Assembly: GCF_000010625.1 (NCBI RefSeq)
Contig: NC_010296.1
Location: 750,001 to 782,000 of the forward strand
Source of the DNA: Microcystis aeruginosa NIES-843
Lineage (GTDB): Bacteria > Cyanobacteriota > Cyanobacteriia > Cyanobacteriales > Microcystaceae
Reading direction: 5' to 3'
DNA: 32,000 bases
The position numbers and the translations under genes are program-made. Each line of letters starts with the position of its first letter. Positions within the stretch are counted from its first letter, which is position 1. The notes below the pieces were generated by a model. That model was not told where the DNA came from. It worked only from the letters and a program-made list of their open reading frames with translations, and did not search any database. Positions 5,774 through 31,252 of the stretch are shown here, one piece after another.

Positions 5774-5920
5774 CTTGGGGAGCATCTCACTTATGCAATG
5801 AGTATTAATACTTATAGCCGTCAACAACTAGAAAATCTTCAACTTGATCACAAAGAGAAATGAGATTATAATAGTTATAACTTACAATTCAGAATAGCTC
5901 TCGATGGGAGGAATAATTCA

Positions 5921-6130
5921 ATGTTATCAGAAAATGAAAAAAGAATTAAAGAGTTATGTCAAGAGTTAGGGCAATGTCTCTATGAGCAATCCCCAATTAA
6001 TAAATTTAATAACTTGGGAGAGATAGAGGAGACAGTCAGAGATTTAATGATTCAGTATGTCAACCCAGAAATCGGTATTTTTTTGTCAAAACAAGCACAG
6101 GAGAAACAGCTGGTCGGACAAGAAAAGTGA
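5921..6130 (+). CDS. IS transposase orfA (N-terminal part)
   Basis: 69-aa ORF homologous to orfA of the second IS copy (31043-31252). It ends about 43 nt after a T-run slippery site. Confidence 0.65.
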   Translation: MLSENEKRIKELCQELGQCLYEQSPINKFNNLGEIEETVRDLMIQYVNPEIGIFLSKQAQEKQLVGQEK

Positions 6131-6984
6131 AAAGTATTTTGGGGGAATTACCAATTACAGAAAAACAAGCGAAAAAATTAGAAATAAAGTCTCGGACTCA
6201 GATGAGTCCAATGTTAGAGAAGAACTGTTTGCTATTAAGTGGCGATGAATCCTACGAGAAATCGGCGCAGAAAATCAAATCATTGACAGGGATTGCTGTT
6301 TCTCACAGTACCCAACAACGCCTCGTACATCGCTATGCTTTTGAAGAATTACCGTCTAACCCAGAAGTGGAAGTGGAAGAAATGAGCCTAGATGGCGGTA
6401 AGGTACGACTAAGAACTGCCAAGGGAAAAGCCTTAATTTGGCGTGATTATAAAGCAGTGAGTTTTCATCAACTGGGGGTAGCGGCTTTTTTTCAAGATAA
6501 CTCAGCTTTATTAGATTTGGTTAATTCTCAAGTTTTGGCCAAGCCTTTAATTTGTTTAGGAGATGGACATGATGGTATCTGGAATTTATTTCGTGAGATA
6601 GGAGAGAAACAGGAAAGAATTGAAATATTGGATTGGTATCATTTAATCGAAAACCTCTATAAAGTTGGCGGGTCATTCCAGCGAATTGAGGAGGTAAAAT
6701 GTTTTCTCTGGAAGGGGGAAGTGGATGCTGCTATCTCCTGTTTTGAGGGATGGTCAGAGCCGCAAGTGGAGAATTTTATTATTTATTTGAACAAGCATAA
6801 ACATCGAATTGTCAATTATGGTTATTTGCAGGCAGAGGGCATTTCGATTGGCTCTGGCTCTGTTGAATCAAAAATTAAACAAATTGCTCATCGTCTTAAA
6901 ATTACTGGTGCAAGTTGGGAATCTGGTAATGTACCGCAAGTCCTTCGTCATCGCTGTGCTTATCTAAATGGTTGCCTTTTTTAA
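6127..6984 (+). CDS. IS transposase orfB (DDE catalytic part), in the -1 frame relative to orfA
   Basis: Contains the motif LGDGHDGIWNLF...ILDWYHLIENL, typical of ISKra4/ISLre2-type transposases. The -1 frame is already open and homologous to copy 2 from about 6076 (YFFVKTSTGETAGRTRK). Confidence 0.7.
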   Translation: MKSILGELPITEKQAKKLEIKSRTQMSPMLEKNCLLLSGDESYEKSAQKIKSLTGIAVSHSTQQRLVHRYAFEELPSNPEVEVEEMSLDGGKVRLRTAKGKALIWRDYKAVSFHQLGVAAFFQDNSALLDLVNSQVLAKPLICLGDGHDGIWNLFREIGEKQERIEILDWYHLIENLYKVGGSFQRIEEVKCFLWKGEVDAAISCFEGWSEPQVENFIIYLNKHKHRIVNYGYLQAEGISIGSGSVESKIKQIAHRLKITGASWESGNVPQVLRHRCAYLNGCLF

Positions 6985-7065
6985 CTTTTTTATTGAGATC
7001 ATTAAGCATTTCTACTTATTGCAAAGGTGAGATGCTCCCTAAACTGAATAGCTTGTAGCAATCTT

Positions 7066-7164
7066 GTAGGGTGCGTTCCCTAATCTGGCTCCTACTTCTC
7101 CACTAATAGATTTTTGGGGAACGCACCATGCACATTGATTGAAACTGTGGGTTAAAGTGCGATG
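7066..7164 (+). repeat. structured ~100-bp repeat (family C), copy A
   Basis: GTAGGGTGCGTTCCCTAAT..(variable)..TTTTGGGGAACGCACCATGCACATTGATTGAAACTGTGGGTTAAAGTGCGATG. An 11-bp perfect stem pairs 7070-7080 with 7117-7127. Repeated at 12702-12760 and 13547-13644. Confidence 0.7.
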
Positions 7165-7365: not shown

Positions 7366-8202
7366 ATGACTAAAAAGAATCAATCAAAAAGATTAACGAA
7401 TCAACATAAAGAGTCTAAAGGTGTAGTTGGTATATTTGGAGATGAAGCAAAATCACACGACATAACTGTTGGAAAAATTTCACTTTTTGTAATTGAACAG
7501 CTTGAAAAGGAGTTTCCTCAATTATCTTTTCAATACAAAACGAGCATAAAAAAAGAAGAAATAAACGAAGCATTAAAGAAAATTGACCCAGAATTAGGAC
7601 AAACACTTTTTGTATCAAATTCAAGTATTATACCCGATGGTGGAATAATAGAAGTAAAAGATGATAACGGTAATTGGAGAATCGTTTTAGTTTCGGAAGC
7701 TAAACATCAGGGGAAAGACATTGAAAACATCAAAGCAGGAAAACTTGTAGGAGCAAAAAATGATCAAGATTTGATGGCTGCTGGTAATGCGATAGAAAGA
7801 TCCCATAAAAACATATCTGAAATCGCTAATTTGATGTTATCTGAATCTCATTTTCCCTATGTATTATTTCTAGAAGGCTCAAATTTTTTAACAGAAACTA
7901 TTTCAATTAAAAGACCCGATGGAAGGGTTGTAACGCTTGAATACAATTCAGGAACGCTAAATAGATTAGATAGGTTAACTTCTGCAAATTATGGAATGCC
8001 CATTAATACCAATTTGTGTAAAAATAAGTTTGTCAAGCATAAAGATAAAACAATTATGCTTCAAGCAACTTCTATATACACACAAGGAAATGGCGAAAAA
8101 TGGGATGTCAAAAAAATGTTTGATATTATGCTTGAAATTTCTAAAACCTCTCTTAAAGTATTAGGCAGTGAGATATTTAATCAGATAACCAAAAGTAAAT
8201 AA
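7366..8202 (+). CDS. ecoRIR: type II restriction endonuclease, EcoRI family (predicted GAATTC specificity)
   Basis: 278 aa, collinear with my recollection of E. coli R.EcoRI over its whole length (QSKRLTNQHK.., SFQYKTSIKKEEINEALKKIDPELG, PDGGIIEVKDD..LVSEAKHQGKD, MAAGNAIERSHKNISEIANLMLSESHFPYVLFLEGSNF). The catalytic D91, E111 and K113 sit at the same positions. Confidence 0.9.
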   Translation: MTKKNQSKRLTNQHKESKGVVGIFGDEAKSHDITVGKISLFVIEQLEKEFPQLSFQYKTSIKKEEINEALKKIDPELGQTLFVSNSSIIPDGGIIEVKDDNGNWRIVLVSEAKHQGKDIENIKAGKLVGAKNDQDLMAAGNAIERSHKNISEIANLMLSESHFPYVLFLEGSNFLTETISIKRPDGRVVTLEYNSGTLNRLDRLTSANYGMPINTNLCKNKFVKHKDKTIMLQATSIYTQGNGEKWDVKKMFDIMLEISKTSLKVLGSEIFNQITKSK

Positions 8203-8239
8203 CTAAAACAAAGATTTATTAAATCAAAATAGGTTGAAA

Positions 8240-9250
8240 ATGGCAAGAAATGCAACAAACGAATTATTACAAAAAGCTAAAAAATCAAAAAGTGACGAGT
8301 TTTATACACAGCTTTCAGATATAGAAAGCGAATTACAGCATTATAAAAGTCATTTTGAAAATCAAGTAGTTTATTGCAATTGCGATGACCCCCGAATTAG
8401 TAACTTTTTTAATTATTTTACCTCAAATTTCAATGAATTAGGTCTTAAAAAAATAATAACATCTTGTTATAGAGAGCAAGTAAAAAATTTATTTAATACA
8501 GAAGAAGATGAAAAAGGGTTTTTCTTTGAATATACAGGTACAGAAGGGGAAAAAAACAAACCAAGTTCAACTGACCTAGTTTACTTTAATGGAGATGGTG
8601 ATTTTCGTAGTTCGGAAAGCATTGAACTATTAAAGCAGTCCGATATTGTTGTTACCAATCCCCCATTTTCATTATTCAGAGAGTATGTAGCTCAATTGGT
8701 TAAATACGATAAAAAGTTTTTGATAATTGGAAATATTAATGCAATAACCTATAAAGAAATTTTCAAACTTATTAAAGAAAACAAGGCGTGGTTAGGAATA
8801 AATCTTGGTAGAGGTATTTCAGGTTTTATTGTACCTGAACACTATGAACTATATGGAACAGAAACTCGAATAGATAACTCTGGTAATAGAATAATCTCAC
8901 CGAACAATTGTTTATGGCTTACTAATTTAGATAATTTTAAGCGGCACGAAGATATAAAACTTACAAAAAGATATTTTGGCAACGAAGTTCAATATCCAAA
9001 ATATGACAATTATGATGGGATTAATATTAATAAAACACAAGACATACCAATAGATTATAAGGGATATATGGGGGTGCCAATAACATTTTTACATAAATTT
9101 AATCCCGACCAATTTGAAATAATTAAATTCAGGAAAGGGAATGATGATAAAGATTTATCAGTAAATGGGAAATGTCCGTATTTTAGAATACTAATAAAGA
9201 ATAAACGAATACAAACTGAATATATTGATTTAACTGACAAAGAAAGATAA
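8240..9250 (+). CDS. ecoRIM: N6-adenine DNA methyltransferase, M.EcoRI family
   Basis: The N-terminus MARNATNELLQKAKKSKSDEFYTQ and the motif SDIVVTNPPFSLFREY..KYDKKFLIIGN match M.EcoRI as I recall it. The R-then-M order is the same as in the EcoRI operon. The ORF track starts at TTG 8234, but ATG 8240 fits the homolog. Confidence 0.9.
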   Translation: MARNATNELLQKAKKSKSDEFYTQLSDIESELQHYKSHFENQVVYCNCDDPRISNFFNYFTSNFNELGLKKIITSCYREQVKNLFNTEEDEKGFFFEYTGTEGEKNKPSSTDLVYFNGDGDFRSSESIELLKQSDIVVTNPPFSLFREYVAQLVKYDKKFLIIGNINAITYKEIFKLIKENKAWLGINLGRGISGFIVPEHYELYGTETRIDNSGNRIISPNNCLWLTNLDNFKRHEDIKLTKRYFGNEVQYPKYDNYDGININKTQDIPIDYKGYMGVPITFLHKFNPDQFEIIKFRKGNDDKDLSVNGKCPYFRILIKNKRIQTEYIDLTDKER

Positions 9251-9524
9251 TGTATAACAAATCGTTGTACCTGACATTTTAGCTCTTCGGTTTGTGTTAT
9301 GCAATGGACGAGGGTTATAAGGGATGGAACCATTATAGAGAAAGGCATTTAGCGATTTTTGTCAATTGTTTTTGATCTAGAGCGAACTAATCAATTAAAT
9401 CTCTTGCCAGATAAGGATTTAGTCGATTTATGCCCCCTATCGAACCATACCAAGTAACGAAGAACCGACATTGTTCCGCTACGATCCAAAATGTCGGTGA
9501 AATCGATCGTTATGCTCCAAAGCT

Positions 9525-9702: not shown

Positions 9703-9912
9703 ATGAGTACATCAGCAAAATCACTAGAAGAACTGGTGAGACAATTATCGCCCCAGTTAAAGGTTGAAGTACAAACGTTTGTAGAGTCACTTTTAAGTAA
9801 ATCTAACCAACCTATAAAACGTAAACTCCGTCAAGACTGGGCAGGGACGCTTAAAACTGATTACACATCAATTGAGTTACAGCATCTTGCAGTTGAATGG
9901 AGAAATGGCTAG
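9703..9912 (+). CDS. putative antitoxin partner of a PIN-domain toxin
   Basis: About 70-aa ORF (ATG 9703; the track starts at TTG 9691) that overlaps the downstream PIN ORF by 16 bp. The C-terminal LRQDWAGTLK..TSIELQHLAVEWR pattern resembles antitoxins found upstream of cyanobacterial PIN genes. Confidence 0.55.
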   Translation: MSTSAKSLEELVRQLSPQLKVEVQTFVESLLSKSNQPIKRKLRQDWAGTLKTDYTSIELQHLAVEWRNG

Positions 9913-10154
9913 TGTTTCTTCTGGATACGAATATTTGGCTAGAACGCTTATTAGGACAAGCACAGGCGGAGGTTGTTGCGGAGCTACTTGATACGCTCTC
10001 ACCGTCTGATATGTGTATGACTGATTTTACTTTACATTCTATCGCGGTGATCTGCAATCGGCTGAATCAACGAGAGGTTTTTATCAAATTTGTGGATGAC
10101 GTTTTGATTGATGCTGGTGTTGTACTGGTCAGTATTCCTGCTAATGGGACTTAA
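9897..10154 (+). pseudogene. PIN-domain (VapC-like) toxin, C-terminally truncated
   Basis: It has the N-terminal PIN signature VFLLDTNIWLERLL but is only 85 aa. The reading frame runs into repeat family C and is then cut by the IS701-family insertion at 10145. The distal acidic PIN residues are absent. Confidence 0.6.
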
Positions 10155-10187
10155 ACAAATTTCAAGCCCAAACAAAGCCTAAACTGG

Positions 10188-10369
10188 GGGAGCATCTCAC
10201 TTACGCGATAAGTAATTATACTTAGCCTAAAAGCCACTCTTAATCGTGTCTTGGAACGAAATAGAGGCTTTTAAAGACTGCGTACATGGAGAATTAAAAC
10301 AAGAATTACCCTCGAAAAGCCTATTTTTCCACTAAGTATTTATGCTCATTGCAAAGGTGAGATGCTCCC
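10188..10369 (+). mobile_element. 182-bp MITE (family A) derived from the ISKra4/ISLre2-like IS, copy 1
   Basis: It shares both termini with the IS at 5778-7039 (GGGAGCATCTCACTTA.. / ..TTGCAAAGGTGAGATGCTCCC) and has no ORF. Flanked by the 8-bp direct repeat TAAACTGG (10180-10187, 10370-10377). Identical to 28326-28507. Confidence 0.85.
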
Positions 10370-11467
10370 TAAACTGGCTTTGTAAGCGGCAAACACATCC
10401 CGATTCTCGGTCAGCCACTCAAAGAAACGGAAAGACATCGCTGTCCGAAAAGCTTCCAAGGCTTCCACAAAAGTGTTTAAAGGTCGATTCGCCCACTGCC
10501 TTTGCAATCCCCCAGTTAACTTATGCCACAGGATAAATGTATAGGCACAAAACACCAGGATAAAATGACGAAGTAAGCTTCGTTTATCCCTGACTTGATA
10601 TTCCCTTAACCCTAACCATCCTTTGGCTTCTCGGTAGAATACTTCCACCCAATTTCTTTCGGTGTAAGTCCTCACTATCCACGAAGCTGTTACTGTATCT
10701 GCCTCAACTACATTGGTGATGAAATAGTCCACCTCTGTGGCTTTTTCCATTGAACTTGCATTCATGACGATCGCCAAGTTCCTTTCTCCTTCTAGTTGAG
10801 ATATTTTCGCTCTGAATACCGCTACCCAAACCGTTTTCTCTTTATCTAGATTTAGGGTGATTTTCTCCCAATCCTTTTCTGATAGGCTTTTTGCTAGTTG
10901 CTCAAGCTGGATTGTTTCTTCCACACCCCCTTCTTTTTCAATAATTACTTTTCGATTTTTTGCCAATCCTCCTAAGTATTTTAGCTTTCTTTCTTCCAGG
11001 GCTTTGAGAAAATTTGTGTTGTTGCCATAACCAGCATCTATTAAGACGATTTTCGGTCGATAGCCTCTGGTTAAGCTCCGGTCAATTAAATCTATCGCTA
11101 TCTCTGGTTTCTTCTTAAATTCTTTGTCTTCTTTCCCCTCGGCTAAGGAACTAGCCGGTTGATAAATTTCAATGTCTAGGGGGACACTTTTTTTGCCGTC
11201 GTAGAGATGAGTAGTGACGGCGACTATTCCGTTGTCTGTCTTGCCAATTTCTCCTAGGTACTGCCTGCCAACTCCGGCGGTCAGATTGCCACTTTTTCGA
11301 TGTCCTGAGTCATCGACAATCAGGGAAAATCCTCGGGGGATTTGCGTCTGGCGGCATTGGTTCATCACTTGCAACCGACATTCATTCACCTGACGGTCTG
11401 ACCAAGGAGATTCGGTCAAAAAGTGATGTAATCGGTTATAAACTACTCCGACGGCATTATTGGCCAT
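10346..11467 (-). pseudogene. IS701-family DDE transposase, interrupted (largest fragment)
   Basis: Carries LHHFLTESPWSD and the DDSG..DAGYG.. pattern. The ancestral ORF is restored as complement(10162-10179, 10370-11515, 12520-12624), about 422 aa (MKETTPAAMPPCFDRWCRRFD...FRQYLGGLLGESERKNLTQMANNAV...ASLGFVWA), by deleting both MITEs plus one copy of each target duplication. Confidence 0.8.
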
Positions 11468-11515
11468 TTGAGTGAGGTTTTTCCTCTCACTTTCCCCTAA
11501 TAATCCTCCTAAATA

Positions 11516-12513
11516 GGGCTGGCTGAATAAATCTAAAAACCTTGTTGGATAAGACTTTTGGACTTTTTTCCCCTCAAAAAGTACCAGATATGGGAGTGAT
11601 CAGGGGTAAATTCAGGGACTTTTTCCCTGAAAATTAGGTAATTGACCCCCTCAAAATCGGTAAAACCCCACACCCGTTACAGTAGAGCAGGAAGTCGCCT
11701 TCCCACCCCCTGCTTCAAAACCGGACTTACGACTTTCGCCGTATCCGGCTCCTGAGTAACTAGGCTACTGTCATTAGTAGAATAATAATGGGAATTATTA
11801 TTTCCTTGTCTATTCAACCCTCTTGGCTGTATCCCCACCAGACAAGATTGTTGGTTTTAGGGCGTATATGACCGTTGATTGTTGCTTAGACTTCCTAGTT
11901 ACCCGTCCTTTGTCAGCATATCTTTGATATTACTCAAAGCCTTGGCTTTTAAGGACATCCTCTCCCTCTATTGACTTGCGGATGGTTTCCTACTGCCCCG
12001 AACGGGCAGAGTCAATCAGGGTTACTTCGTTCCCTATAACCATTGGTTGAACCCTTAGGATGATACTGTCCACAACAGAGTAACGGGAATGCCTTACTGA
12101 TAGTGGTATGAGCTATCAGCCCCAACTCTGTTAACTTTTGTTTCGAGCCTGTCAGCCTTTTGGCTCGTGGGTGTTGACGATGGTTAATTCGTATCTTCGC
12201 CCCAGGGCTATCCATAGGTTCTGGCTCAACGGGTTTCTGATTTAGGCTATCAGATACCGCTTTTTTTTTCCTCGCTCACTACCTCAGATGTACCAAGTCT
12301 AAAGCAGCAGGAAATGCCGTCACTCTAGGCATCTAGAGGACAGGACTAAGGTTATTACTAACCCGCACCTGTAGGGTTATAAAGTTATCAAGGTACTACA
12401 TTTACCAAGCGGCTAATCCTCTAAACGTCTTACTGTCTAGTTTCTAGCCAACGAATCGCACCACACCCCACACCCTACACCCTGCCCCTAGGAAAAACTT
12501 TTTCAGCAGACCC
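11516..12513 (+). mobile_element. MITE family B copy, itself carrying a group II intron
   Basis: 11516-11675 and 12462-12513 align with the complete copy at 23778-23991. Flanked by the direct repeat TAAATA (11510-11515, 12514-12519). Confidence 0.7.
11676..12461 (-). ncRNA. ORF-less group II intron (786 nt)
   Basis: The minus strand starts GTGCGA (12461 downward). Domain V is GAGCCGGAUACGGCGAAAGUCGUAAGUCCGGUUU (complement 11718-11751), with the AGC triad, a 2-nt bulge and a GAAA loop. A domain VI hairpin with a bulged A follows, and the 3' end reads ..CUACUGUAAC at 11676. Domain IV is a short AT-rich stub with no RT ORF. Confidence 0.8.
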
Positions 12514-12701
12514 TAAATATTGTCTGAAGCCGTTTTTTTGCGCTTCGTTTTTGAAGCAATTGTCAAACCGCCGACACCATCGGTCAAAGCATGGGGGCAT
12601 TGCGGCTGGGGTTGTCTCTTTCATCGCTGATCTTTCAACGTAAAGTGCTTACTCTTTAACGATTATACTCGATTTGATCTTTATTTGGCGTTTAAGTCCC
12701 A

Positions 12702-12760
12702 CTAATAGATTTTTGGGGAACGCACCATGCACATTGATTGAAACTGTGGGTTAAAGTGCG
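12702..12760 (+). repeat. repeat family C, copy B (3' part; the 5' part lies left of the IS701 insertion at about 10113-10144)
   Basis: CTAATAGATTTTTGGGGAACGCACCATGCACATTGATTGAAACTGTGGGTTAAAGTGCG is identical to the corresponding part of copy A. Confidence 0.65.
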
Positions 12761-12814
12761 GTCGCCGATCTTAATAAGCTATATTAACAACAATACTTAA
12801 AGAGAAGGCTTAAA

Positions 12815-13117
12815 ATGGTTAAATCAACTTTGTACAGGACAGCAAAAGTCCTACCGGGAAATAGAATTGAAATTGAATCTCCAGATCTGACTGTAGGACA
12901 AACTGTTGAGGTAGTTATTTTGGTTGAAGAAGTTAGTTCTGATTCTTCTACCAGCGAATATATCTCTCCATCCTTAAAACAGCGTCTTGCTTTTCTGAAG
13001 TTACCAATGACTGAACGGAGGAATATTCTCAAAAGTCAAGCCGATATAATGCTCTCTCACTATCAACAAGATTCTGAATGGCAGGAGTTAATGGCAGGTG
13101 ACATCATTGAGTATTAA
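12815..13117 (+). CDS. putative MazE-like antitoxin
   Basis: 100-aa ORF overlapping the downstream MazF/PemK ORF by 20 bp. Small acidic C-terminal half. Assignment rests on operon context. Confidence 0.6.
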   Translation: MVKSTLYRTAKVLPGNRIEIESPDLTVGQTVEVVILVEEVSSDSSTSEYISPSLKQRLAFLKLPMTERRNILKSQADIMLSHYQQDSEWQELMAGDIIEY

Positions 13118-13472
13118 CCCTGAGCTGCCAAAACGTGGAGAAATTTGGTTAGTCAACTTCGATCCTACTGTTGGTGCAGAAATCAAAAAATTGCGTCCTG
13201 CCGTCGTCATCAGTTCCGATTCAGTAGGAAAGCTTCCTATCAAGCTTATTGCTCCTATTACAGACTGGAAAACATATTTTTCAGCAAATTTATGGCACGT
13301 TAAAATTGAACCTAACAGTATCAATGGATTGAATAAAGCTTCTGCAATTGATACTCTTCAACTAAGAGGGGTGGATTTACAAAGGTTTATTCGTAAATTA
13401 GGAAGCGTTTCTGAAATTACAATACTGGAAATTGTAGCCTCCATTGCTACTGTAATCGAATTTGAGGTCTAA
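13098..13472 (+). CDS. mazF: MazF/PemK-family mRNA interferase toxin
   Basis: PKRGEIWLVNFDPTVGAEIKKLRPAVVISSD is the canonical PemK/MazF N-terminal motif. About 120 aa. Confidence 0.85.
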   Translation: MTSLSINPELPKRGEIWLVNFDPTVGAEIKKLRPAVVISSDSVGKLPIKLIAPITDWKTYFSANLWHVKIEPNSINGLNKASAIDTLQLRGVDLQRFIRKLGSVSEITILEIVASIATVIEFEV

Positions 13473-13546
13473 CAAATCATTGCACCCGACCAACAAAAAG
13501 CGACTGATGCTGGAAAATAGACCAAAATGGCGGGTGAATTCAGCTG

Positions 13547-13661
13547 GTAGGGTGCGTTCCCTAATGCAAGTCCTACTGCTCCAGCGCTCGATTTTGGGTA
13601 ACGCACCATGCACATTGATTGAAACTGTGGGTTAAAGTGCGATGCCGAAGGCACTGCGTAG
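13547..13661 (+). repeat. repeat family C, copy C (with 3' extension)
   Basis: It has the same arms and the same 3' core as copy A, but a different sequence between the arms. The extension CCGAAGGCACTGCGTAG is shared with 9525-9550. Confidence 0.7.
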
Positions 13662-13834
13662 CAGTACGCCGCTCTGGTGGGTTAGGTTGACGGCAGACCC
13701 CCAACTGTGATCTTTGACTTCATGCCAATTTGTGCGGACTGTATTCAGGTGTTACCTGCTGTGATAGTTAGTAAGTGAGCCTGTTCGTTGAGTTGAGGAG
13801 TAAAATAGGAGAAGTCCTAATCTAAGATTTAGTA

Positions 13835-14110
13835 ATGGATAGAAGCATTATAGAACGGCAACCGCTACTTGAAGCAGTCAAGGCTCTCCCTGATGAGGCT
13901 TTAGTGGAACTGTCTAATTTTCTGGACTATCTTCGCTATAAAGCAGCCCATCAAAGAGAACTGACCACTCATTCTTCTAGTTTTCTGCTTGCAGTTGCAG
14001 GTTTAGGCAACTCTGGTCAACAGGATATTTCAGAACGTGATGAAGAGATTCTAGGCAATGAGATTGATCCGGTGTCCGGCTGGAATCTTAACCCAAGCAA
14101 TTCAGTATGA
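13835..14110 (+). CDS. putative VapB-type antitoxin
   Basis: 91-aa ORF with a 4-bp ATGA overlap onto the downstream PIN gene. The N-terminal LPDEALVELSNFLDYLRYK helix motif is common in cyanobacterial antitoxins. Confidence 0.6.
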   Translation: MDRSIIERQPLLEAVKALPDEALVELSNFLDYLRYKAAHQRELTTHSSSFLLAVAGLGNSGQQDISERDEEILGNEIDPVSGWNLNPSNSV

Positions 14111-14520
14111 CGGCGATACTTGACACCAGTTTTTTGTTTGCCTTGACCGATCAGGGCGATCGCAATCATCAACGGGTGTTGGCTATTGCTCAAAGCGTGA
14201 ATGAGCCATTGGTTCTACCTGTCGTTGTCCTGCCTGAGGTCTGCTATCTGATTGCATCAAGATTGAGCCACCAAGCAATGCGCCGTTTTGTATCCAGTAT
14301 GACACCTGATGCGGTTCAAGTTGAACCTGTAATCCCAGAAGACTTGGTACGAGTGCATGAGATATTGGAACAATATGCTGACAATCAGCTTGACTTTACA
14401 GATGCAGCGATCATTGCCATAGCTGAAAGGCTTACTATTACTCGCGTTTACACACTTGATCGCCGAGATTTTTCGATTATTCGTCCAAGTCACTGCGATT
14501 ACTTTGAGTTATTTCCTTGA
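14107..14520 (+). CDS. vapC: PIN-domain ribonuclease toxin VapC
   Basis: 137 aa with the full set of PIN acidic residues in the expected contexts (ILDTS, LPE, FTDAA, TLDRRDF). Confidence 0.85.
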   Translation: MTAILDTSFLFALTDQGDRNHQRVLAIAQSVNEPLVLPVVVLPEVCYLIASRLSHQAMRRFVSSMTPDAVQVEPVIPEDLVRVHEILEQYADNQLDFTDAAIIAIAERLTITRVYTLDRRDFSIIRPSHCDYFELFP

Positions 14521-14792
14521 ACCACCAGCTAACACTGCGTGGCAGCGGACGGTCGCAATTCGTCGCTGCCGAGCTTGCTTTCTAATGCCGTCGCTGATTT
14601 GAGCCGTTAGCGATCGAGCGCGCTACGCACCGATCGGGTTCTGGACTTCCCCATTGACAAAAAGCCATAACCTGTGCTGCAGGAAGGATTAACAGAATTT
14701 CCGATACCCCCTTACTGGGTACAAATTAAGAAAACCTCTAATAAATCTAACGCCGTACAAACTCCTCGTCAATAGCAAATCAGGTTATACTT

Positions 14793-14851
14793 CACACCCC
14801 ACACCCCACACCCCACACCCTACCCCCACGAAAAACTTTTTCAGCAGACCC
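14793..14851 (+). repeat. MITE family B fragment (heptamer-tract end)
   Basis: CACACCCCACACCCCACACCCCACACCCTACCCCCACGAAAAACTTTTTCAGCAGACCC matches the right end of copies 23778-23991 and 11516-12513. Weaker similarity may extend upstream to about 14725. Confidence 0.55.
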
Positions 14852-18007: not shown

Positions 18008-18200
18008 AGGGTTTGCGGCAAAAAGTTTTTCGTGGGGGTAGGGTGTGGGGTGTGGGGTGTGGGGTGTGGGGTTTTACCAGTTTTGAGGTGGCCAATTACC
18101 TAATTTTCAGGGAAAAAGTGCCTAAATTTCCCCCACTTTTTGATTTCAAAAAAGCCTAAAGATATTATCCAACAAGGTTTTTAGCTTTATTCAGTAAACC
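18008..18200 (-). mobile_element. MITE family B copy (inverted orientation)
   Basis: GGGTTTGCGGCAAAAAG..(GGGGTGT)n..TTATTCAGTAAACCC aligns end to end with 23778-23991. It begins 2 bp after the hydantoinase stop codon. Confidence 0.75.
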
Positions 18201-23777: not shown

Positions 23778-23991
23778 GGGTTGGCTGAATAAATCTAAAA
23801 ACCTTGTTGTATAAGACTTTTAGACTTTTTTCCCATCAAAAAGTGCCAGACATTGGGGTGATCGGGGGGGAAATTTAGGCACTTTTTCCCTGAAAATTAG
23901 GTAATTGACCCCCTGAAAATGGGTAAAACCCCACACCCCACACCCCACACCCCACACCCTGCCCCCACGAAAAACTTTTTGCCGCAAACCC
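23778..23991 (+). mobile_element. MITE family B, complete copy
   Basis: Termini GGGTTGGCTGAATAAA.. / ..TTTTTGCCGCAAACCC, an internal (CCCCACA)n tract and no ORF. 7-bp direct repeat TAGTATA at 23771-23777 and 23992-23998. Confidence 0.8.
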
Positions 23992-24002
23992 TAGTATAGT
24001 TT

Positions 24003-24998
24003 CTAGGAGTCAAAGGCCACTAGAAACTCCTCCACCTGTTCCCGAGTCGGTTGGGAGGCGATCGCTCCTGCCCCCCTTGTCACCATTGTCCCCACCGCAC
24101 AGGCATAAATCACCGCCTTACGGGCTAAATCGGCATTTTCCCCAATTTGATCGCCTCCAAGACCGGCAAGAGCCAAAAAACCCGCCACAAAGCCATCTCC
24201 TGCCCCAGTTGTATCCACCACCTCCCCGGGAAAAGCCTCGACAGTGCCGCTATTTTTGCCTAAATGATATTTACAACCTTTTGCGCCGCCAGTAACCAGA
24301 ATTGCCCCTAAATTGGGGTATTGTGATGATATTTCTCCGGGGGTATCAGTGCCAAATAACCATGCGGCTTCTTCCTCGCTACATTTGAGCAAATCGGCCC
24401 GGAAGATAAAATCTCGAATCCGATCGGGAGCGGCCTCAAGATTAGGCCAAAAAACCGGCCGCCAGTTGATATCGATCAATACTTTCACCCCGTAAATTTT
24501 AGCTAATTCGAGGGCGCGCATCATCGCCGCTCTCGCCGGGGGATAGGCTAACCCTAGGGTTCCCATCACTAGATAATCGGCATTTTTAAACAGATTTTCG
24601 GGCAATAGGTCAGCGTTAAGGGCAGTATCGGCAAAATCCGTCGTTTTAATGCCGCCAAAACCCGCAAAATGTCTGTCCCCCCCAGCATCGCGGGTGACAT
24701 AAACTTGTCGGGTGGGTAGGGTGGCATGATACTGTACACCCGTGGTATCGACTCCAAGAGCGTCTAGCAAGGCGATTAACTGTTCTCCGGGTTGATCTTT
24801 GCCCACGCAACCGATAAAAGCCGAATTTATGCCCAATTTTCGCAATCCACAGGCCACGTTTGCCGGCGCCCCCCCGGTATAGGTTGTCCAAGAAGTCACT
24901 TGCTCTATAGCGCGATCGCTTTGATCGGCAATTAGATCAGAGAGGATTTCCCCTAAACAAATGACAGACACTGGCGAAGATCTTTGATTGTTAAGCAT
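24003..24998 (-). CDS. PfkB-family carbohydrate kinase (fructokinase-like)
   Basis: Motifs GGAPANVA and the C-terminal DTTGAGDGF. Start placed at ATG 24998 (MLNNQRS..). The track ORF runs on to 25163 only by translating the heptamer repeats. Confidence 0.8.
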   Translation of the reverse strand: MLNNQRSSPVSVICLGEILSDLIADQSDRAIEQVTSWTTYTGGAPANVACGLRKLGINSAFIGCVGKDQPGEQLIALLDALGVDTTGVQYHATLPTRQVYVTRDAGGDRHFAGFGGIKTTDFADTALNADLLPENLFKNADYLVMGTLGLAYPPARAAMMRALELAKIYGVKVLIDINWRPVFWPNLEAAPDRIRDFIFRADLLKCSEEEAAWLFGTDTPGEISSQYPNLGAILVTGGAKGCKYHLGKNSGTVEAFPGEVVDTTGAGDGFVAGFLALAGLGGDQIGENADLARKAVIYACAVGTMVTRGAGAIASQPTREQVEEFLVAFDS

Positions 24999-25000
24999 TG

Positions 25001-25153
25001 GTGTGGGAAGTGGGGTGTGGGGTGTGGGGTGTGGGAAGTGGGAAGTGGGAAGTGGGGTGTGGGGTGTGGGGTGTGGGGTGTGGGGTGTGGGGTGTGGGGT
25101 GTGGGAAGAATAAATAAAAATAATCTCCTGACGACCGACGACCGACGACCGAC
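25001..25153. repeat. heptanucleotide tandem repeats (GGGGTGT / GGGAAGT, then ACGACCG)
   Basis: Counted by eye: 25005-25108 holds 10 GGGGTGT and 5 GGGAAG(T) units. 25131-25153 holds (ACGACCG)x3. Confidence 0.9.
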
Positions 25154-25320
25154 TCCCGATCACTGATTAATAACTTGTCAAGAAATCACGATAAATCAAC
25201 TAGAGATTATCTGAGGCATTGAGTATAATCAAACACATAGATTAGGGGAAATTGCTCATAAATCAGTCCGATCGAGCGTGAATCCTCTTTTATTTTTTAG
25301 TCGTAGACTAAGGAAATATC

Positions 25321-28325: not shown

Positions 28326-28507
28326 GGGAGCATCTCACTTACGCGATAAGTAATTATACTTAGCCTAAAAGCCACTCTTAATCGTGTCTTGGAACGAAAT
28401 AGAGGCTTTTAAAGACTGCGTACATGGAGAATTAAAACAAGAATTACCCTCGAAAAGCCTATTTTTCCACTAAGTATTTATGCTCATTGCAAAGGTGAGA
28501 TGCTCCC
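28326..28507 (+). mobile_element. 182-bp MITE (family A), copy 2
   Basis: By eye, base-for-base identical to 10188-10369. No flanking direct repeat here (GCAAAATCC versus GATCGTGTT). Confidence 0.85.
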
Positions 28508-28584: not shown

Positions 28585-29804
28585 TAGACCTCTTGCATAA
28601 TTTTTTTATGGTATAATATAAGGTTTTGCTTTTTTCTCAATTCTTAGATTGAAGTGGAAAAAAGAATAAAATGTGATCTTAGGTCAGGAAATCATCTATA
28701 ATTTTGCTATGTTTATTAGCAAAATTATGGATTATCAAAACTTATCAGATGAACAATTCAAACGCCGTTTCGGTGTGTATAAACAAACATATAGAAAGAT
28801 GGTAGAATCAGTAAAAAGTGTTGAAGCCGACTCTAATTCACCATCTAAAAGGGGACCGAAACCTAAACTATCTATAGAAGAACAAGTTTTAGTAACGTTA
28901 GAATATTGGCGAGAATATAGAACATATTTTCACATTGGTACAAGCTGGGAACTATCAGAATCAACTATATGTCGGATTGTAAATAAGACGGAAAAAATGC
29001 TTTTACAATCGGGAAACTTCCGTTTAAAAGGAAAAAAAGCTTTACTCAATCAAGCAGAGATACCGGTCATAACGGTAATGGATGTAACGGAAACTCCCAT
29101 TGAACGCCCCCAAAAGAAACAGAAAGATTTTTTGGGGGGTAAAAGAGGTTATCATACTTTAAAATCCCAATTAGTAGCTGATCAAAATACAAAGGAAATT
29201 ATCTGTGTCTTTTGTGGGAAAGGTAGAGGTCATGATTTTAGTTTATTTAAAAAAAGTCGAGTTCGTTTTCATCCTTTAACTACCAGCATAGAAGACAGTG
29301 GTTATCAGGGAATAGCTGCATACCATAGTAATAGTTATACACCGAAAAAGAAATCGAAAAATAGAAAATTAACAGAGTTAGAAAAAGAGTATAACAAGGC
29401 TTTAGCCAAAGAAAGGATTATCATTGAACCTATAAATAGGAAACTCAAAATCTTTAAAATCTTATCCTGTAAATATCGGAATCGTCGTCGAAGATATAGT
29501 TTAAGAGTTAACTTGTTGGCGGCTATTTATAACTGTGAGTTAGGGATAGGTATAGCAGCTTCTTAAAAGTTGCCTAAAGATTAATCAAGTCAAGGAGAAT
29601 TTATTCTCAATTTTTATAATTGAGATAGTTTGTGCCGCTTAAATAAAGAGGTTTTGATAACCAAATTAAAGCAGCTCTAAAGAGTTTTGAGTTAAAAGTT
29701 AAACTTCAAGTTTTCATTCAGGACAAATGTACTGATTAACTAATTTTTTGGGGAAAATTAGTTAACCCATCATTATAACATATAATTAATTTGCAAGAGT
29801 TCTA
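28585..29804 (+). mobile_element. IS5-family-like insertion sequence
   Basis: Terminal inverted repeats TAGACCTCTTGCATAATT (28585-) and AATTTGCAAGAGTTCTA (-29804) enclose a single DDE transposase ORF. The target duplication is not resolved. Confidence 0.65.
28727..29566 (+). CDS. DDE transposase (IS5-family / DDE_Tnp_4-like)
   Basis: N-terminal HTH region (KRGPKPKLSIEEQVLVTLEYWREY), then D (VMDVTE), D (EDSGYQG) and E (ERIIIEPINRKLK) blocks. ATG 28727 is preferred over the GTG at 28673. Confidence 0.75.
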   Translation: MDYQNLSDEQFKRRFGVYKQTYRKMVESVKSVEADSNSPSKRGPKPKLSIEEQVLVTLEYWREYRTYFHIGTSWELSESTICRIVNKTEKMLLQSGNFRLKGKKALLNQAEIPVITVMDVTETPIERPQKKQKDFLGGKRGYHTLKSQLVADQNTKEIICVFCGKGRGHDFSLFKKSRVRFHPLTTSIEDSGYQGIAAYHSNSYTPKKKSKNRKLTELEKEYNKALAKERIIIEPINRKLKIFKILSCKYRNRRRRYSLRVNLLAAIYNCELGIGIAAS

Positions 29805-30200
29805 TTGATTAGTTTAGATATTTGGTTACAAGAAAACCAGGATTTTCCTAAATGGCTTTATTTAACTATCTCAACACTTCTTTACATTAACCTCATCATT
29901 CCTATCCACTCTATTATAGTTGATTATCCACCTTCTCTACAGGACTATCCCTACCGAGGTCTTTATCAAATAATTCATTCTATTTTTCTTTAGTGTTATG
30001 ATTTCCCTATATTTTGAACTGGTAGATAAAATATGAACAGGATAATTAAGGTTGCTTTAGTTGCCTTACTATGGATAATTGTGACTACTTCCGCAGTTGA
30101 CCTCGGAGGAGATACATCACGTCGTTTGGACATGGCTCATGCTTGGTGGACAGGTCAACCGGAAATGGGAGCATCCCAGTTTTGCAATGAGTAAAAATAC

Positions 30201-31127
30201 TCAGGCAATATCGCCGTTGAGATAAGCACAACGTAGCTTCAAATACTGAGGAACATTCTCTGCTTTCCATTGTGCTCCCACAATTTTCATTCTTGCACCT
30301 ATTTGCTTAATCTTTGACTCTACACTTCCAGAACCGATGCAAATCCCTTGTGATTGATAGAGTTCGTAATTGGGTATTCTTTCTCGATGTTTATCGACAT
30401 ATTTGGTGAAATTTATAGCCTGTTTCTTTTTGCATCCCTCTAATTCCTCTAAAACTCTTTTCACCTCTCCTTTCCATAAATTCTCTTTGATTCTATTCAG
30501 ACGCTTGTTTGACCCGCCTATTTTCTTCATATTCTCTACTAAATGATACCAATCCAATATTTCTCTCCTTTTAACACCGATTTTCTCCATCAGATTCCAC
30601 ACCCCATCATGACCATCTCCTAAACAGGTGACTACCTCTGTTAAGGGCTGACGGTTCACCCATTCCAGTAATTCTTCATTTTGCTGAAAAAATCCCGCAC
30701 ATTCTTGACCATGCAGACTTACTGCTTTGTAATCTCGACCTTGACTCGGTTGTCCTTTGGGCGTTCTGATTCTGACTTTTCCGACCTCTACACTCAATGC
30801 TTCTACCGGACTCTTTGCTTCTGCTTCCTCAAATTTATATCTTTGTACAAGCCTCTGTTGACTACTGCCTGAAACTGCCATTCCTGTCGCCATTTTGATA
30901 GCTTTTTCCGCATCTTCAAAAGAGACTTTAGCCACTGCTCCTAAGCAACATTTCTCCAGCATGGGACTTAATCGATTATTCTTGCTTAATCCTAGTTTAT
31001 CGGCTTGTTTCTCGCTTATCTTGACTTTCCCTATGATACTGCTTACGCTTTTGGTTCGCCCTGCTTGGGTTCCTGTTGCTGATTCAAAAAAAAATTGCCT
31101 ATGGCAGGACCCAATGTAGTCAGCCAA
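30201..31127 (-). CDS. IS transposase orfB (copy 2), in the -1 frame relative to orfA
   Basis: Carries CLGDGHDGVWNLM..ILDWYHLVENM..GSGSVESKIKQIG and is collinear with 6127-6984. Confidence 0.7.
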   Translation of the reverse strand: MADYIGSCHRQFFFESATGTQAGRTKSVSSIIGKVKISEKQADKLGLSKNNRLSPMLEKCCLGAVAKVSFEDAEKAIKMATGMAVSGSSQQRLVQRYKFEEAEAKSPVEALSVEVGKVRIRTPKGQPSQGRDYKAVSLHGQECAGFFQQNEELLEWVNRQPLTEVVTCLGDGHDGVWNLMEKIGVKRREILDWYHLVENMKKIGGSNKRLNRIKENLWKGEVKRVLEELEGCKKKQAINFTKYVDKHRERIPNYELYQSQGICIGSGSVESKIKQIGARMKIVGAQWKAENVPQYLKLRCAYLNGDIA

Positions 31128-31252
31128 TGGTCTCGCAGGGCGGTTTCAATGCCCTCAAAGCTACGTAGTTGTTCTTCTGGGGTATTATCGACTAGAATTT
31201 GAGCAATGGCTTTTAAATGTTGATCTAGTTGTTCTTTTTGGTCTGTATTCAT
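31043..31252 (-). CDS. IS transposase orfA (copy 2)
   Basis: 69-aa ORF homologous to 5921-6130. It ends about 40 nt after the T-run slippery site. Confidence 0.65.
   Translation of the reverse strand: MNTDQKEQLDQHLKAIAQILVDNTPEEQLRSFEGIETALRDHWLTTLGPAIGNFFLNQQQEPKQGEPKA

What the first reader, a model, noticed from the sequence alone, without database searches (positions are those of the whole stretch)
10145..12701. Four-level nested insertion: intron in MITE in IS in repeat/PIN-toxin 3' end
All junctions can be read directly. (1) An IS701-family element (IRs TGGGACTTAAAC, TSD CTAA) sits in repeat family C at the 3' end of the truncated PIN gene. (2) Its transposase gene is split near the 3' end by MITE-A (TSD TAAACTGG). 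(3) It is split near the 5' end by MITE-B (TSD TAAATA). (4) MITE-B carries a group II intron in its heptamer tract. Removing each element plus one TSD copy restores a continuous transposase ORF of about 422 codons. This gives a relative chronology of four mobile elements in 2.6 kb.
Basis: seen in the sequence. Interest (0 to 1): 0.65.

Follow-up and report, generated by a model that had tools for sequence, protein, structure and literature searches.

The report
Intron in MITE in dead IS

Summary

- **Restoration:** Removing MITE-A, MITE-B and one target-duplication copy of each gives a 1,363-bp IS. Its 422-codon ORF aligns without gaps to intact 422-aa IS701-family (ISMae34) transposases at 96-97% identity.
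- **Intron:** The insert in MITE-B is a 786-nt ORF-less group II intron (Rfam domain V/VI, 55 bits).
- **Empty-site allele:** Microcystis NIES-102 carries the same IS::MITE-B junction with a 212-bp intron-less MITE-B identical to the in-silico excision.

The interpretation needs three corrections.

1. The two CTAA flanks are not a simple target duplication. In NIES-102 they lie 2,626 bp apart. The PIN 3' half and three genes are missing here, so the IS marks a deletion.
2. The NIES-102 IS::MITE-B copy sits at a different locus with its own CTAG duplication. The composite therefore most likely moved as a unit, and MITE-B most likely predates arrival at this locus.
3. The intron is not in MITE-B by accident. 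Its EBS1 and EBS2 pair with two consecutive GGGTGTG heptamers, and seven related copies (six loci) lie after the same TAGGGTGTRGGGTGTR motif, in at least five different upstream contexts.

The elements are of known kinds. The heptamer-homing ORF-less intron appears undescribed. Overall interest is modest.

The parts
10145..12701 (-). ISMae34-like IS701-family insertion sequence. It is 2,557 bp as found and 1,363 bp once the inserts are removed. It is non-autonomous because its transposase gene is in three pieces.
   Evidence: The restored element aligns 1-1363 with intact copies L009 (96.8%) and L001 (93.7%), and at 99.5-99.7% with L076.
10145..10156 (.). IS terminal inverted repeat TGGGACTTAAAC, at the transposase 3' end.
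   Evidence: The same termini are seen in L001, L004, L007, L008, L009 and L076.
12690..12701 (.). IS terminal inverted repeat GTTTAAGTCCCA, at the transposase 5' end.
10141..10144 (.). CTAA on the PIN side. It is native PIN sequence and the IS insertion point in PIN codon 82.
   Evidence: L010, L011, L014 and L019 read ...CCTGCTAA|CCAAATGAAG.
12702..12705 (.). CTAA on the repeat-C side. It is native to the repeat-C hairpin loop and lies 2,626 bp from the other CTAA in NIES-102.
10188..10369 (.). MITE-A, 182 bp (the same length as MaeMITEc of Kaneko 2007). It splits the transposase after codon 418.
   Evidence: A 100% identical copy lies at 28326-28507. Its roughly 37-nt terminal repeat is shared with ISKra4-family IS copies at 5778-7039 and 30167-31345.
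10180..10187 (.). TAAACTGG target duplication of MITE-A. The second copy is at 10370-10377. It reads as 9 bp (CTAAACTGG) if the outer G/C is assigned to the target.
   Evidence: Intact IS copies and L013 have a single TAAACTGG.
11516..11675 (-). MITE-B, distal part. The whole MITE is 212 bp without the intron, the same length as MaeMITEe.
   Evidence: Other copies lie at 23778-23991 (90%) and 18009-18194 (79%).
12462..12513 (-). MITE-B, proximal part, ending in the heptamer tract that forms the intron's 5' exon.
11510..11515 (.). TAAATA target duplication of MITE-B. The second copy is at 12514-12519. It falls between transposase codons 36 and 38.
   Evidence: There is a single TATTTA in intact IS copies and the same duplication in L076.
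11676..12461 (-). ORF-less group II intron, 786 nt, in the same orientation as the transposase gene.
   Evidence: Copies in L022 (99.6%) and L036 (98.5%). No RT, maturase or other Pfam domain in its two ORFs.
11676..11753 (-). Intron domains V and VI: AGC triad, GAAA tetraloop, and a bulged A 8 nt from the 3' end.
   Evidence: RF00029, 55 bits, E = 2e-8. (fold -41 kcal/mol, z = -5.5).
12105..12110 (-). EBS1, CAUACC, in a 9-nt hairpin loop. It pairs with the last six exon bases, GGUGUG.
   Evidence: The homologous loop pairs 6 of 6 with its own exon in 11 of 16 related introns, against 5% of cross-pairings.
12169..12174 (-). EBS2 candidate, ACACCC. It pairs with exon positions -14 to -9, GGGUGU.
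   Evidence: The homologous variable segment pairs 5 of 6 with its own exon in most relatives; support is weaker than for EBS1.
12520..12624 (-). Transposase fragment 1, about codons 1-35.
   Evidence: The 49-aa ORF that reads into MITE-B is identical to a called gene in NIES-102.
10378..11515 (-). Transposase fragment 2, about codons 36-415, which holds the DDE domain.
10162..10187 (-). Transposase fragment 3: the last codons (GFVWA) and the stop codon.
   Evidence: W421 and A422 are invariant in the homologues.
9897..10144 (+). VapC/PIN toxin gene, truncated at codon 82 of about 135-140.
12702..12768 (+). Right part of a repeat-C hairpin element; the left arm is absent.
   Evidence: Complete copies lie at about 7075-7161 and 13544-13648.

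Best explanation
The window comes from Microcystis aeruginosa NIES-843. Positions 10145-12701 hold a dead copy of the IS701-family element ISMae34.

The most likely history has four steps.
1. A 212-bp MITE (MITE-B) inserted between transposase codons 36 and 38 of an ISMae34 copy and duplicated TATTTA.
2. The resulting non-autonomous IS::MITE-B composite was moved in trans by transposase from intact ISMae34 copies to new NTAR target sites. One copy landed in a DUF6883 gene in NIES-102. One landed in the vapC (PIN) / repeat-C region of NIES-843.
3. In the NIES-843 lineage, an ORF-less group II intron retrohomed into the GGGTGTG heptamer tract of MITE-B. It was guided by EBS1 (CAUACC) and EBS2 (ACACCC) pairing with two consecutive heptamers, and presumably used a reverse transcriptase supplied by one of the genome's ORF-containing introns.
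4. A 182-bp MITE (MITE-A), which shares terminal repeats with ISKra4-family IS copies in the same window, inserted near the transposase 3' end.

At some point about 2.6 kb next to the IS was also lost: the PIN 3' half, a UPF0175/DUF3368 pair and a hydrolase gene. Possible routes are recombination between two same-orientation IS copies at two CTAA sites, or a transposase-initiated adjacent deletion repaired on the CTAA microhomology.

Shown: all junctions, the restored ORF, the empty-site alleles, the non-contiguous flanks, the intron's target motif and the EBS1 covariation.
Inferred: the order of steps 3 and 4 and of the deletion, the deletion mechanism, mobilisation in trans, and that the intron splices.
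For: - Restored IS and ORF.
- Source genome: the truncated PIN protein is on a 5,842,795-bp contig, the NIES-843 genome size given in PMC2779907. That paper lists ISMae34 (IS701 family, 1,368 bp, 32 copies) and MaeMITEs of 182 and 212 bp.
- IS::MITE-B at a second locus: it has its own CTAG duplication, a gene is restored on excision, the MITE is 100% identical and the IS 99.5-99.7% identical.
- Non-contiguous flanks.
- IS target sites in other copies are CTAG, TTAG, ATAG and CTAA. Matching tetranucleotides at two independent sites are therefore unremarkable.
- Intron family: seven loci, at least five different upstream contexts, all inserted after (G/A)TAGGGTGTRGGGTGTR.
- EBS1 covaries with the 5' exon in related introns.
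- Related ORF-containing introns encode RT, maturase and HNH domains.
- NIES-843 has seven group II intron RT genes (PMC8934634).
- The MITE-A terminal repeat is shared with ISKra4-family IS copies.
- L012 and L016 independently reproduce the PIN | IS | MITE-A junction.
Against: - Only one genome (NIES-102) has both IS flanks on one contig. The size and content of the lost segment in the direct ancestor of NIES-843 are therefore inferred.
- No allele was found with an IS at only one of the two CTAA sites next to intact sequence on its other side.
- The identical IS::MITE-B junction at two loci could also come from gene conversion between IS copies rather than transposition of the composite.
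- The MITE-A-less allele (L013) is a scaffolded metagenome contig that ends 12 nt past the site. It may mix reads from other IS copies.
- No ORF-containing parent of the intron was found among the 54 loci.
- EBS2 support is weaker than EBS1 support.
- Two perfect target motifs in the window are unoccupied, so homing is infrequent.
Confidence: 0.8

Rival explanations
1. ISMae34 inserted once into a contiguous PIN/repeat-C site and duplicated CTAA. MITE-A and MITE-B then inserted into it here, and the intron came last.
For: CTAA is present on both sides of the IS. Each inner element has clean duplications, and removing them restores the ORF.
Against: The flanks are 2,626 bp apart in NIES-102, and CTAA is native at both sites. 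The PIN 3' half follows the left flank in four other contigs. The repeat-C left arm precedes the right flank in two other contexts. No listed PIN homologue (top 120 of 212) has the predicted fusion C-terminus. The same IS::MITE-B junction exists at another locus.
Confidence: 0.08
2. The intron reached this site passively. It inserted once into one MITE-B copy, and the MITE-B::intron composite was then spread by DNA transposition, without repeated retrohoming into heptamer tracts.
For: L036 has the intron at the same position in another MITE-B copy.
Against: The L036 and window MITE-B sequences are only 88-96% identical, while their introns are 98.5% identical. L022, L023, L032/L060, L054 and L062 have the intron after the same motif but in other contexts that lack the MITE-B terminus; L022 is at the end of a long free heptamer array. 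The otherwise identical MITE-B in L076 is intron-less. EBS1 and EBS2 are complementary to the heptamers.
Confidence: 0.1
3. MITE-B is at the same IS position in NIES-843 and NIES-102 because of gene conversion or recombination between IS copies, or because of two independent insertions into a hotspot. The composite did not transpose as a unit.
For: ISMae34 has about 32 copies per genome, which gives ample substrate for conversion. The IS flanks here have themselves been rearranged.
Against: The L076 composite has its own perfect 4-bp CTAG duplication, and a gene is restored on excision. That is the signature of a transposition event by the whole 1,581-bp unit. The MITE sequence is 100% identical and the TSD is the same, which argues against independent insertions. 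The two IS copies are 99.5-99.7% identical to each other but about 97% to the intact copy L009.
Confidence: 0.12
4. The structure is an assembly artefact, that is, repeats joined wrongly.
For: The region consists almost entirely of multi-copy repeats.
Against: Two independent metagenome contigs (L012, L016) reproduce the PIN | IS | MITE-A junctions at 99.9-100% identity. The IS::MITE-B junction is reproduced in a complete NIES-102 genome. Full-length intron copies with identical ends occur in L022 and L036.
Confidence: 0.02

Closest known systems
ISMae34 (IS701 family) of Microcystis aeruginosa NIES-843 (Kaneko et al. 2007, PMC2779907)
   Same: The transposase is an IS701-family equivalog hit (NF033540, 344 bits). 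It is 96-98% identical to proteins named 'IS701-like element ISMae34 family transposase'. The restored length is 1,363 bp against a listed 1,368 bp. It has 12-bp terminal repeats, and intact copies have 4-bp NTAR duplications.
   Different: This copy is inactivated by two MITEs and an intron. Its two flanks are not contiguous in relatives, so it marks a 2.6-kb deletion.
MaeMITEs of M. aeruginosa (MaeMITEa-h, PMC2779907) and the 187-nt ISL3-type MITE of PCC 7806 (PMC11448079)
   Same: MITE-A (182 bp) and MITE-B (212 bp) are short and non-coding, have terminal inverted repeats and target duplications, and occur several times in the window. Their lengths equal those of MaeMITEc and MaeMITEe.
   Different: MITE-B has an internal heptamer array that serves as the intron target. 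MITE-A shares its terminal repeats with ISKra4-family IS copies, not ISL3.
ORF-less group II introns mobilised in trans in cyanobacteria (Thermosynechococcus elongatus; Mohr, Ghanem and Lambowitz 2010, PMC2882425)
   Same: This is a short ORF-less intron with an intact ribozyme core. Near-identical copies occur at several sites, in a genome that also encodes group II intron reverse transcriptases (PMC8934634).
   Different: The target here is a tandem heptanucleotide tract found in MITEs and in free arrays, not unique gene sequences. The helper protein and the autonomous parent were not identified. I did not read the Thermosynechococcus paper in detail; the comparison rests on its abstract and on general knowledge.
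Group II introns that home into other repeated or mobile DNA (for example RmInt1 in ISRm2011-2, and class C introns after terminators or attC sites; general knowledge, not tested here)
   Same: A multi-copy sequence serves as the homing site. This provides many harmless targets and lets the intron travel with another mobile element.
   Different: The target is defined by EBS1 and EBS2 pairing to two consecutive copies of a 7-nt tandem repeat plus a TA variant two repeats upstream. I found no description of this in the papers searched.

Membership tests
IS701 family insertion sequence | DDE transposase that matches the IS701-family model over its full length | tested here: met
   NF033540 scores 344 bits (cut-off 150) over profile positions 1-362 of 363. 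Pfam DDE_5 scores 149.5 bits. The alignment to intact 422-aa homologues is gap-free.
IS701 family insertion sequence | Terminal inverted repeats and an element length of about 1.4 kb | tested here: met
   The 12-bp repeats are perfect. The restored length of 1,363 bp equals L009 and is close to L001.
IS701 family insertion sequence | 4-bp target-site duplication produced by a single insertion | tested here: inconclusive
   Intact copies have CTAG or TTAG duplications. In the window CTAA is on both sides, but the two flanks are 2,626 bp apart in NIES-102 and CTAA is native at both sites.
IS701 family insertion sequence | Transposition activity | not testable with these tools
   The gene is in three pieces, so this copy cannot make its own transposase. 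Mobilisation in trans is inferred from L076.
MITE (miniature inverted-repeat transposable element) | Short (under 600 bp), non-coding, with terminal inverted repeats | tested here: met
   MITE-A is 182 bp with 13-nt perfect and about 45-nt imperfect repeats. MITE-B is 212 bp with termini GGGTCTGCTGAA and GGGCTGGCTGAA.
MITE (miniature inverted-repeat transposable element) | Target-site duplication confirmed against an empty site | tested here: met
   Intact IS copies have a single TAAACTGG and a single TATTTA. Both are duplicated in the window.
MITE (miniature inverted-repeat transposable element) | Multiple dispersed copies | tested here: met
   A second MITE-A copy is at 28326-28507 (100%). 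MITE-B copies are at 23778-23991 and 18009-18194, with a partial copy at 14777-14851. More copies are in L022, L023, L036, L054 and L076.
MITE (miniature inverted-repeat transposable element) | An autonomous IS with matching terminal repeats | tested here: inconclusive
   For MITE-A, ISKra4-family IS copies at 5778-7039 and 30167-31345 share the repeat GGGAGCATC.... No partner was identified for MITE-B.
Group II intron | Domain V and VI consensus structure | tested here: met
   RF00029 scores 55 bits against a gathering score of 40, over model positions 1-77 of 77. The fold has z = -5.5, a GAAA loop and a bulged A.
Group II intron | 5' GUGYG and 3' AY boundaries, with exons that rejoin precisely | tested here: met
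   The ends are GTGCG ... AC. The intron-less allele L076 equals the in-silico junction exactly.
Group II intron | EBS1/EBS2 pairing with IBS1/IBS2 | tested here: met
   EBS1 CAUACC pairs with GGUGUG, and the homologous loop covaries with the exon in 11 of 16 relatives. EBS2 ACACCC pairs with GGGUGU, with weaker support.
Group II intron | Domains I-IV recognisable | tested here: inconclusive
   There is only a weak match to group-II-D1D4-2 (24.5 bits against a gathering score of 36). The first 60-100 nt and nt 389-444 are 74-87% identical to ORF-containing cyanobacterial introns.
Group II intron | Intron-encoded RT/maturase | tested here: not met
   The intron has no ORF longer than 67 aa, and its two ORFs have no Pfam domain. 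It is therefore an ORF-less member, which is a recognised state. Relatives encode RVT_1, GIIM and HNH domains.
Group II intron | Self-splicing and retrohoming | not testable with these tools
   Recent mobility is inferred from copies that are 98.5-99.6% identical at different loci.

The most novel reading that the evidence does not exclude
A family of ORF-less group II introns in Microcystis uses tandem GGGTGTG heptanucleotide tracts as its homing site. Its EBS1 and EBS2 each read one repeat unit, and a TA variant two units upstream sets the register. Such tracts are carried inside MITEs, and the MITEs ride inside trans-mobilised IS elements. The retroelement's landing pad is therefore itself spread by two layers of DNA transposons, which would be a three-way dependency among mobile elements. 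It would also give the enigmatic cyanobacterial heptamer (STRR-like) arrays one concrete biological interaction.
Probability: 0.5. Interest if true: 0.55.

Novelty: new member of a known kind. Interest (0 to 1): 0.35.

Why it matters
The locus is a clean worked example of how mobile elements pile up in Microcystis, whose genome is about 12% IS and MITE sequence (PMC2779907). It yields three lessons of wider use.

- **Matching flanks can mislead.** Matching short repeats around an IS with a preferred target (NTAR) are not proof of a simple insertion. Here they hide a 2.6-kb deletion that removed half a toxin gene and three neighbouring genes.
- **A dead IS can still move.** An IS killed by a MITE can still move as a composite, so nesting order does not equal order of arrival at a locus.
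- **The intron has a repeat target.** An ORF-less group II intron family appears to be programmed for heptamer repeat tracts. This would explain why it sits in a MITE. It suggests an assayable target for studying intron mobility in a bloom-forming cyanobacterium that is hard to manipulate.

None of this changes how any of these element classes is understood.

Tried and rejected
- The viral-contig scan for the intron's domain V 33-mer found nothing.
- The plasmid blastn with the whole intron found only short conserved segments in Nostocales introns, and no close copy.
- The look-up of the 373-aa middle transposase ORF found no exact match on record.
- The look-up of the truncated 85-aa PIN returned only L012 and L013 again.
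- L013 looked like a clean MITE-A-less intermediate allele. It is a scaffold with an N gap and ends 12 nt past the site, so I downgraded it to suggestive.
- I searched the 54 loci and all Microcystis loci for an ORF-containing parent of the intron. None is more than 86% identical outside the 5' end, and there is no RT gene in the Microcystis loci.
- I considered that MITE-B makes only a TA duplication like IS630 elements, because all six copies are flanked by TA. I rejected this for this copy because intact IS copies have a single TATTTA, so 6 bp are duplicated.
- I considered EBS2 candidates at intron nt 85-91, 170 and 596. I rejected them in favour of nt 288-293, on position and on homology with relatives.
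- The second MITE-A copy has no target duplication. I did not follow this up.
- Literature searches for Microcystis plus group II intron, nested MITE or heptanucleotide found no description of this intron or of this nesting.
Full report
**1. What is in the sequence**

The stretch 10145-12701 begins with TGGGACTTAAAC and ends with its reverse complement GTTTAAGTCCCA. CTAA lies immediately outside each end.

- **MITE-A.** A 182-bp element (10188-10369) has GGGAGCATCTCAC termini and is bracketed by TAAACTGG.
- **MITE-B.** A second element (11516-12513) has GGGCTGGCTGAA / TTCAGCAGACCC termini and is bracketed by TAAATA.
- **Intron.** Inside MITE-B, Rfam finds group II intron domains V and VI on the minus strand at 11676-11753 (RF00029, 55 bits, gathering score 40). 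Read on the minus strand, the intron starts GTGCG at 12461 and ends ...CTACTGTAAC at 11676, which makes 786 nt. Removing it rejoins GGGTGTA GGGTGTG GGGTGTG | GGGTGTG GGG.

**2.

Deleting MITE-A, MITE-B (with the intron) and one duplication copy of each leaves 1,363 bp. This holds one ORF of exactly 422 codons.

- The protein scores 344 bits on NCBIfam NF033540, 'IS701 family transposase' (cut-off 150). The match covers profile positions 1-362 of 363 and so runs across the MITE-B junction. Pfam DDE_5 scores 149.5 bits.
- A database search returns intact 422-aa Microcystis proteins at 96-97% identity. Partial proteins at 97-98% are named 'IS701-like element ISMae34 family transposase'.
- The alignment has no gap. 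Residues on both sides of each junction are invariant: L37 G38 G39 L40 L41, and S416 L417 G418 ... W421 A422.
- At DNA level the restored element aligns end to end with intact copies: L009 2924-4286 (96.8%, 1,363 bp, flanked by CTAG/CTAG) and L001 (93.7%, TTAG/TTAG).

**3. Source and what is already catalogued**

The truncated PIN protein of the window lies on a contig of 5,842,795 bp. That is the size of the M. aeruginosa NIES-843 chromosome (PMC2779907). That paper lists ISMae34 (IS701 family, 1,368 bp, 32 copies) and eight MITE families. These include MaeMITEc (182 bp) and MaeMITEe (212 bp), the lengths of MITE-A and of intron-less MITE-B. IS and MITE sequence together make up 11.8% of the genome. 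The DNA-transposon components are therefore known kinds in a genome known to be saturated with them.

**4. The CTAA 'duplication' hides a deletion**

I looked up the antitoxin gene upstream of the PIN gene in other assemblies and aligned the loci to the window.

- *Left flank.* It is PIN codon 82. In four other contigs (L010, L011, L014, L019) it continues ...CCTGCTAA|CCAAATGAAGAG..., the rest of a 135-140-aa PIN protein.
In NIES-102 (L010) and in an unrelated context (L021) the left arm GGGTGCGTTCCC precedes this point. The left arm is missing in the window.
- *Distance.* In NIES-102 the two flanks align at 99.5% and 99.7% but lie 2,626 bp apart. CTAA is present natively at both points. The intervening PIN 3' half, UPF0175, DUF3368 and hydrolase genes are absent from the whole window apart from repeats.
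- *No fused allele.* None of the listed PIN homologues (top 120 of 212 hits) extends into the fusion C-terminus that a contiguous empty site would encode.
- *Target preference.* Other ISMae34 copies sit at CTAG, TTAG, ATAG and CTAA. Identical tetranucleotides at two separate insertion or breakage points are therefore unremarkable.

I conclude that the IS marks an IS-associated deletion. Two routes are possible: recombination between two same-orientation copies, or a transposase-initiated break repaired on the CTAA microhomology. I cannot tell which.

**5. MITE-B probably entered the IS before this copy arrived here**

The 49-aa ORF that runs from the transposase start into MITE-B is also called as a gene at a different place in NIES-102.

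- There, an ISMae34 copy 99.5-99.7% identical to the restored window IS carries MITE-B at the same position with the same TATTTA duplication. Its 212-bp sequence is 100% identical to my in-silico intron-less MITE-B. It has no MITE-A and no intron.
- This composite has its own CTAG duplication inside a DUF6883 gene, and the gene's reading frame is restored on excision.

Two conclusions follow. The intron boundaries are confirmed by a natural empty site. And the 1,581-bp IS::MITE-B unit, which cannot make transposase, most likely transposed as a whole using transposase from intact copies. Nesting order therefore does not give the order of arrival at this locus. Gene conversion between IS copies is a less likely alternative.

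**6. MITE-A**

- A second, 100% identical copy lies at 28326-28507, without a duplication.
- The roughly 37-nt terminal repeat of MITE-A is shared by two IS copies in the window: 5778-7039, and 30167-31345 (9-bp duplication ACCGGAAAT). Their ORFs score 260-270 bits on the ISKra4-family model, cut-off 205. These are the likely mobilising partners.
- Metagenome contigs L012 and L016 reproduce PIN | IS | MITE-A at 99.9-100% identity.
- L013 reads through the site with a single TAAACTGG, that is, without MITE-A. It is a scaffold that ends 12 nt later, so I treat it only as suggestive of an intermediate allele.

**7. The intron and its target**

The intron has no ORF longer than 67 aa and no Pfam domain. 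Domain V has the AGC triad and a GAAA loop. Domain VI has a bulged A 8 nt from the 3' end.

A metagenome scan with the first 22 nt returned 54 loci.

- Most are other cyanobacterial introns that share only the 5' end and encode RT, maturase and HNH proteins.
- Seven belong to this family: L022 and L036 are full length (99.6% and 98.5%), and L023, L032, L060, L054 and L062 are partial.
- All seven, like the window, are inserted directly after (G/A)TAGGGTGT(G/A)GGGTGT(G/A). There are at least five different upstream contexts.
- L036 is in another MITE-B copy that is only 88-96% identical to this one. L022 is at the end of a long free heptamer array.

The intron's recognition sequences fit this target.

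- *EBS1.* A 9-nt hairpin loop at intron nt 350-358 contains CAUACC, which pairs with the last six exon bases GGUGUG. In an alignment with 15 related introns, the homologous loop pairs 6 of 6 with the intron's own 5' exon in 11 of 16 cases (mean 5.69). Only 5% of cross-pairings reach 6 of 6 (mean 4.08).
- *EBS2.* The homologous EBS2 segment reads ACACCC, complementary to GGGUGU at positions -14 to -9. Support from relatives is weaker: own-exon mean 4.56 against cross-pairing mean 3.82.

The intron is thus built to recognise two consecutive heptamers, and its presence in MITE-B follows from its target specificity. Two perfect target motifs in the window, at 14804-14822 (-) and 18039-18057 (+), are unoccupied. 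This fits infrequent, trans-dependent mobility. NIES-843 encodes seven group II intron reverse transcriptases (PMC8934634). Which one serves this intron, if any, is unknown.

**8. Comparison with what is known, and verdict**

The IS is a member of the IS701 family (ISMae34). The two small elements meet the MITE definition. The insert is an ORF-less group II intron. ORF-less introns mobilised in trans are known in cyanobacteria (PMC2882425). From general knowledge, introns that home into other mobile or repeated DNA are also known.

I found no paper describing this Microcystis intron, heptamer tracts as its target, or this nesting. In related genomes the same intron is itself interrupted by a 1,145-bp IS (L032/L060), so such stacking is routine in Microcystis.

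- The finding is a new member of known kinds and of modest interest. The heptamer-homing intron is the part most worth following up.

Noticed in passing
window 9282-9468; L010 6461-6648: There is a 187-bp MITE with (G/A)GCTCTTCGG termini. It appears to belong to the ISL3-associated MITE family reported in M. aeruginosa PCC 7806 (PMC11448079) and matches MaeMITEb in length. Here it lies between the EcoRI-type methylase gene and the DUF2281/PIN pair. In NIES-102 another copy interrupts the PIN gene itself.
   Followed up: partly
window 5778-7039 and 30167-31345: Two ISKra4-family IS copies (NF033572, 260-270 bits) share their roughly 37-nt terminal repeats with MITE-A. The second has a 9-bp duplication, ACCGGAAAT. 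In the first, the duplicated GAATAGCTTG is separated from the right end by an extra TAAACT, which resembles the MITE-A target TAAACTGG.
   Followed up: partly
window 28326-28507: A second MITE-A copy is 100% identical to the one in the IS but has no target duplication. It lies next to an IS5-family IS (ORF 28673-29566). This may be another rearranged junction.
   Followed up: no
window 14804-14822 (-) and 18039-18057 (+): Two perfect copies of the intron target motif TAGGGTGTGGGGTGTGGGG lie in MITE-B-like copies and carry no intron (0 expected by chance).
   Followed up: yes
window 25000-25105: A 15-copy GGTGTGG heptamer array lies inside the 5' part of the mechanical ORF of a PfkB-family kinase gene (24003-25163, minus strand). 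It has no TA variant and no intron. The window also holds many other heptamer arrays (TATCAGT, AAAAGGC, TGTCTCC, CTGATCA, GGAGTCA, AGTTATC).
   Followed up: no
L032 3410-4556 (same as L060): In another Microcystis metagenome contig, the same intron family is itself interrupted at nt 115 by a 1,145-bp IS. That IS has TACCAAATTTC termini and a TTA duplication, and the intron is truncated after nt 229. This shows deeper nesting elsewhere.
   Followed up: partly
window 7075-7161, 12702-12768, 13544-13648; L010 and L021: 'Repeat C' is a dispersed element of about 100 bp with the arms GGGTGCGTTCCC and GGGGAACGCACC. It lies between toxin-antitoxin cassettes in several strains. Its nature (REP-like or MITE remnant) was not determined, and one copy did not fold better than shuffled sequence.
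   Followed up: partly
window 7366-9250 and 9703-14520: An EcoRI-type restriction-modification pair is followed by three toxin-antitoxin cassettes: DUF2281/PIN, a 100-aa protein with MazF, and DUF2281-like/PIN. The 100-aa/MazF cassette with its repeat C also occurs in an unrelated chromosomal context (L021).
   Followed up: partly
L025, L027, L053, L064 and other loci: Many otherwise diverged cyanobacterial group II introns share an identical 22-nt 5' end. In several, the reading frame of the intron-encoded protein runs through domain V (C-terminus ...EEPDEVKVSRPVLKTSG). A relic of that frame is visible in the ORF-less intron here (ORF 11677-11838: EPDTAKVVSPVLKQG).
   Followed up: no
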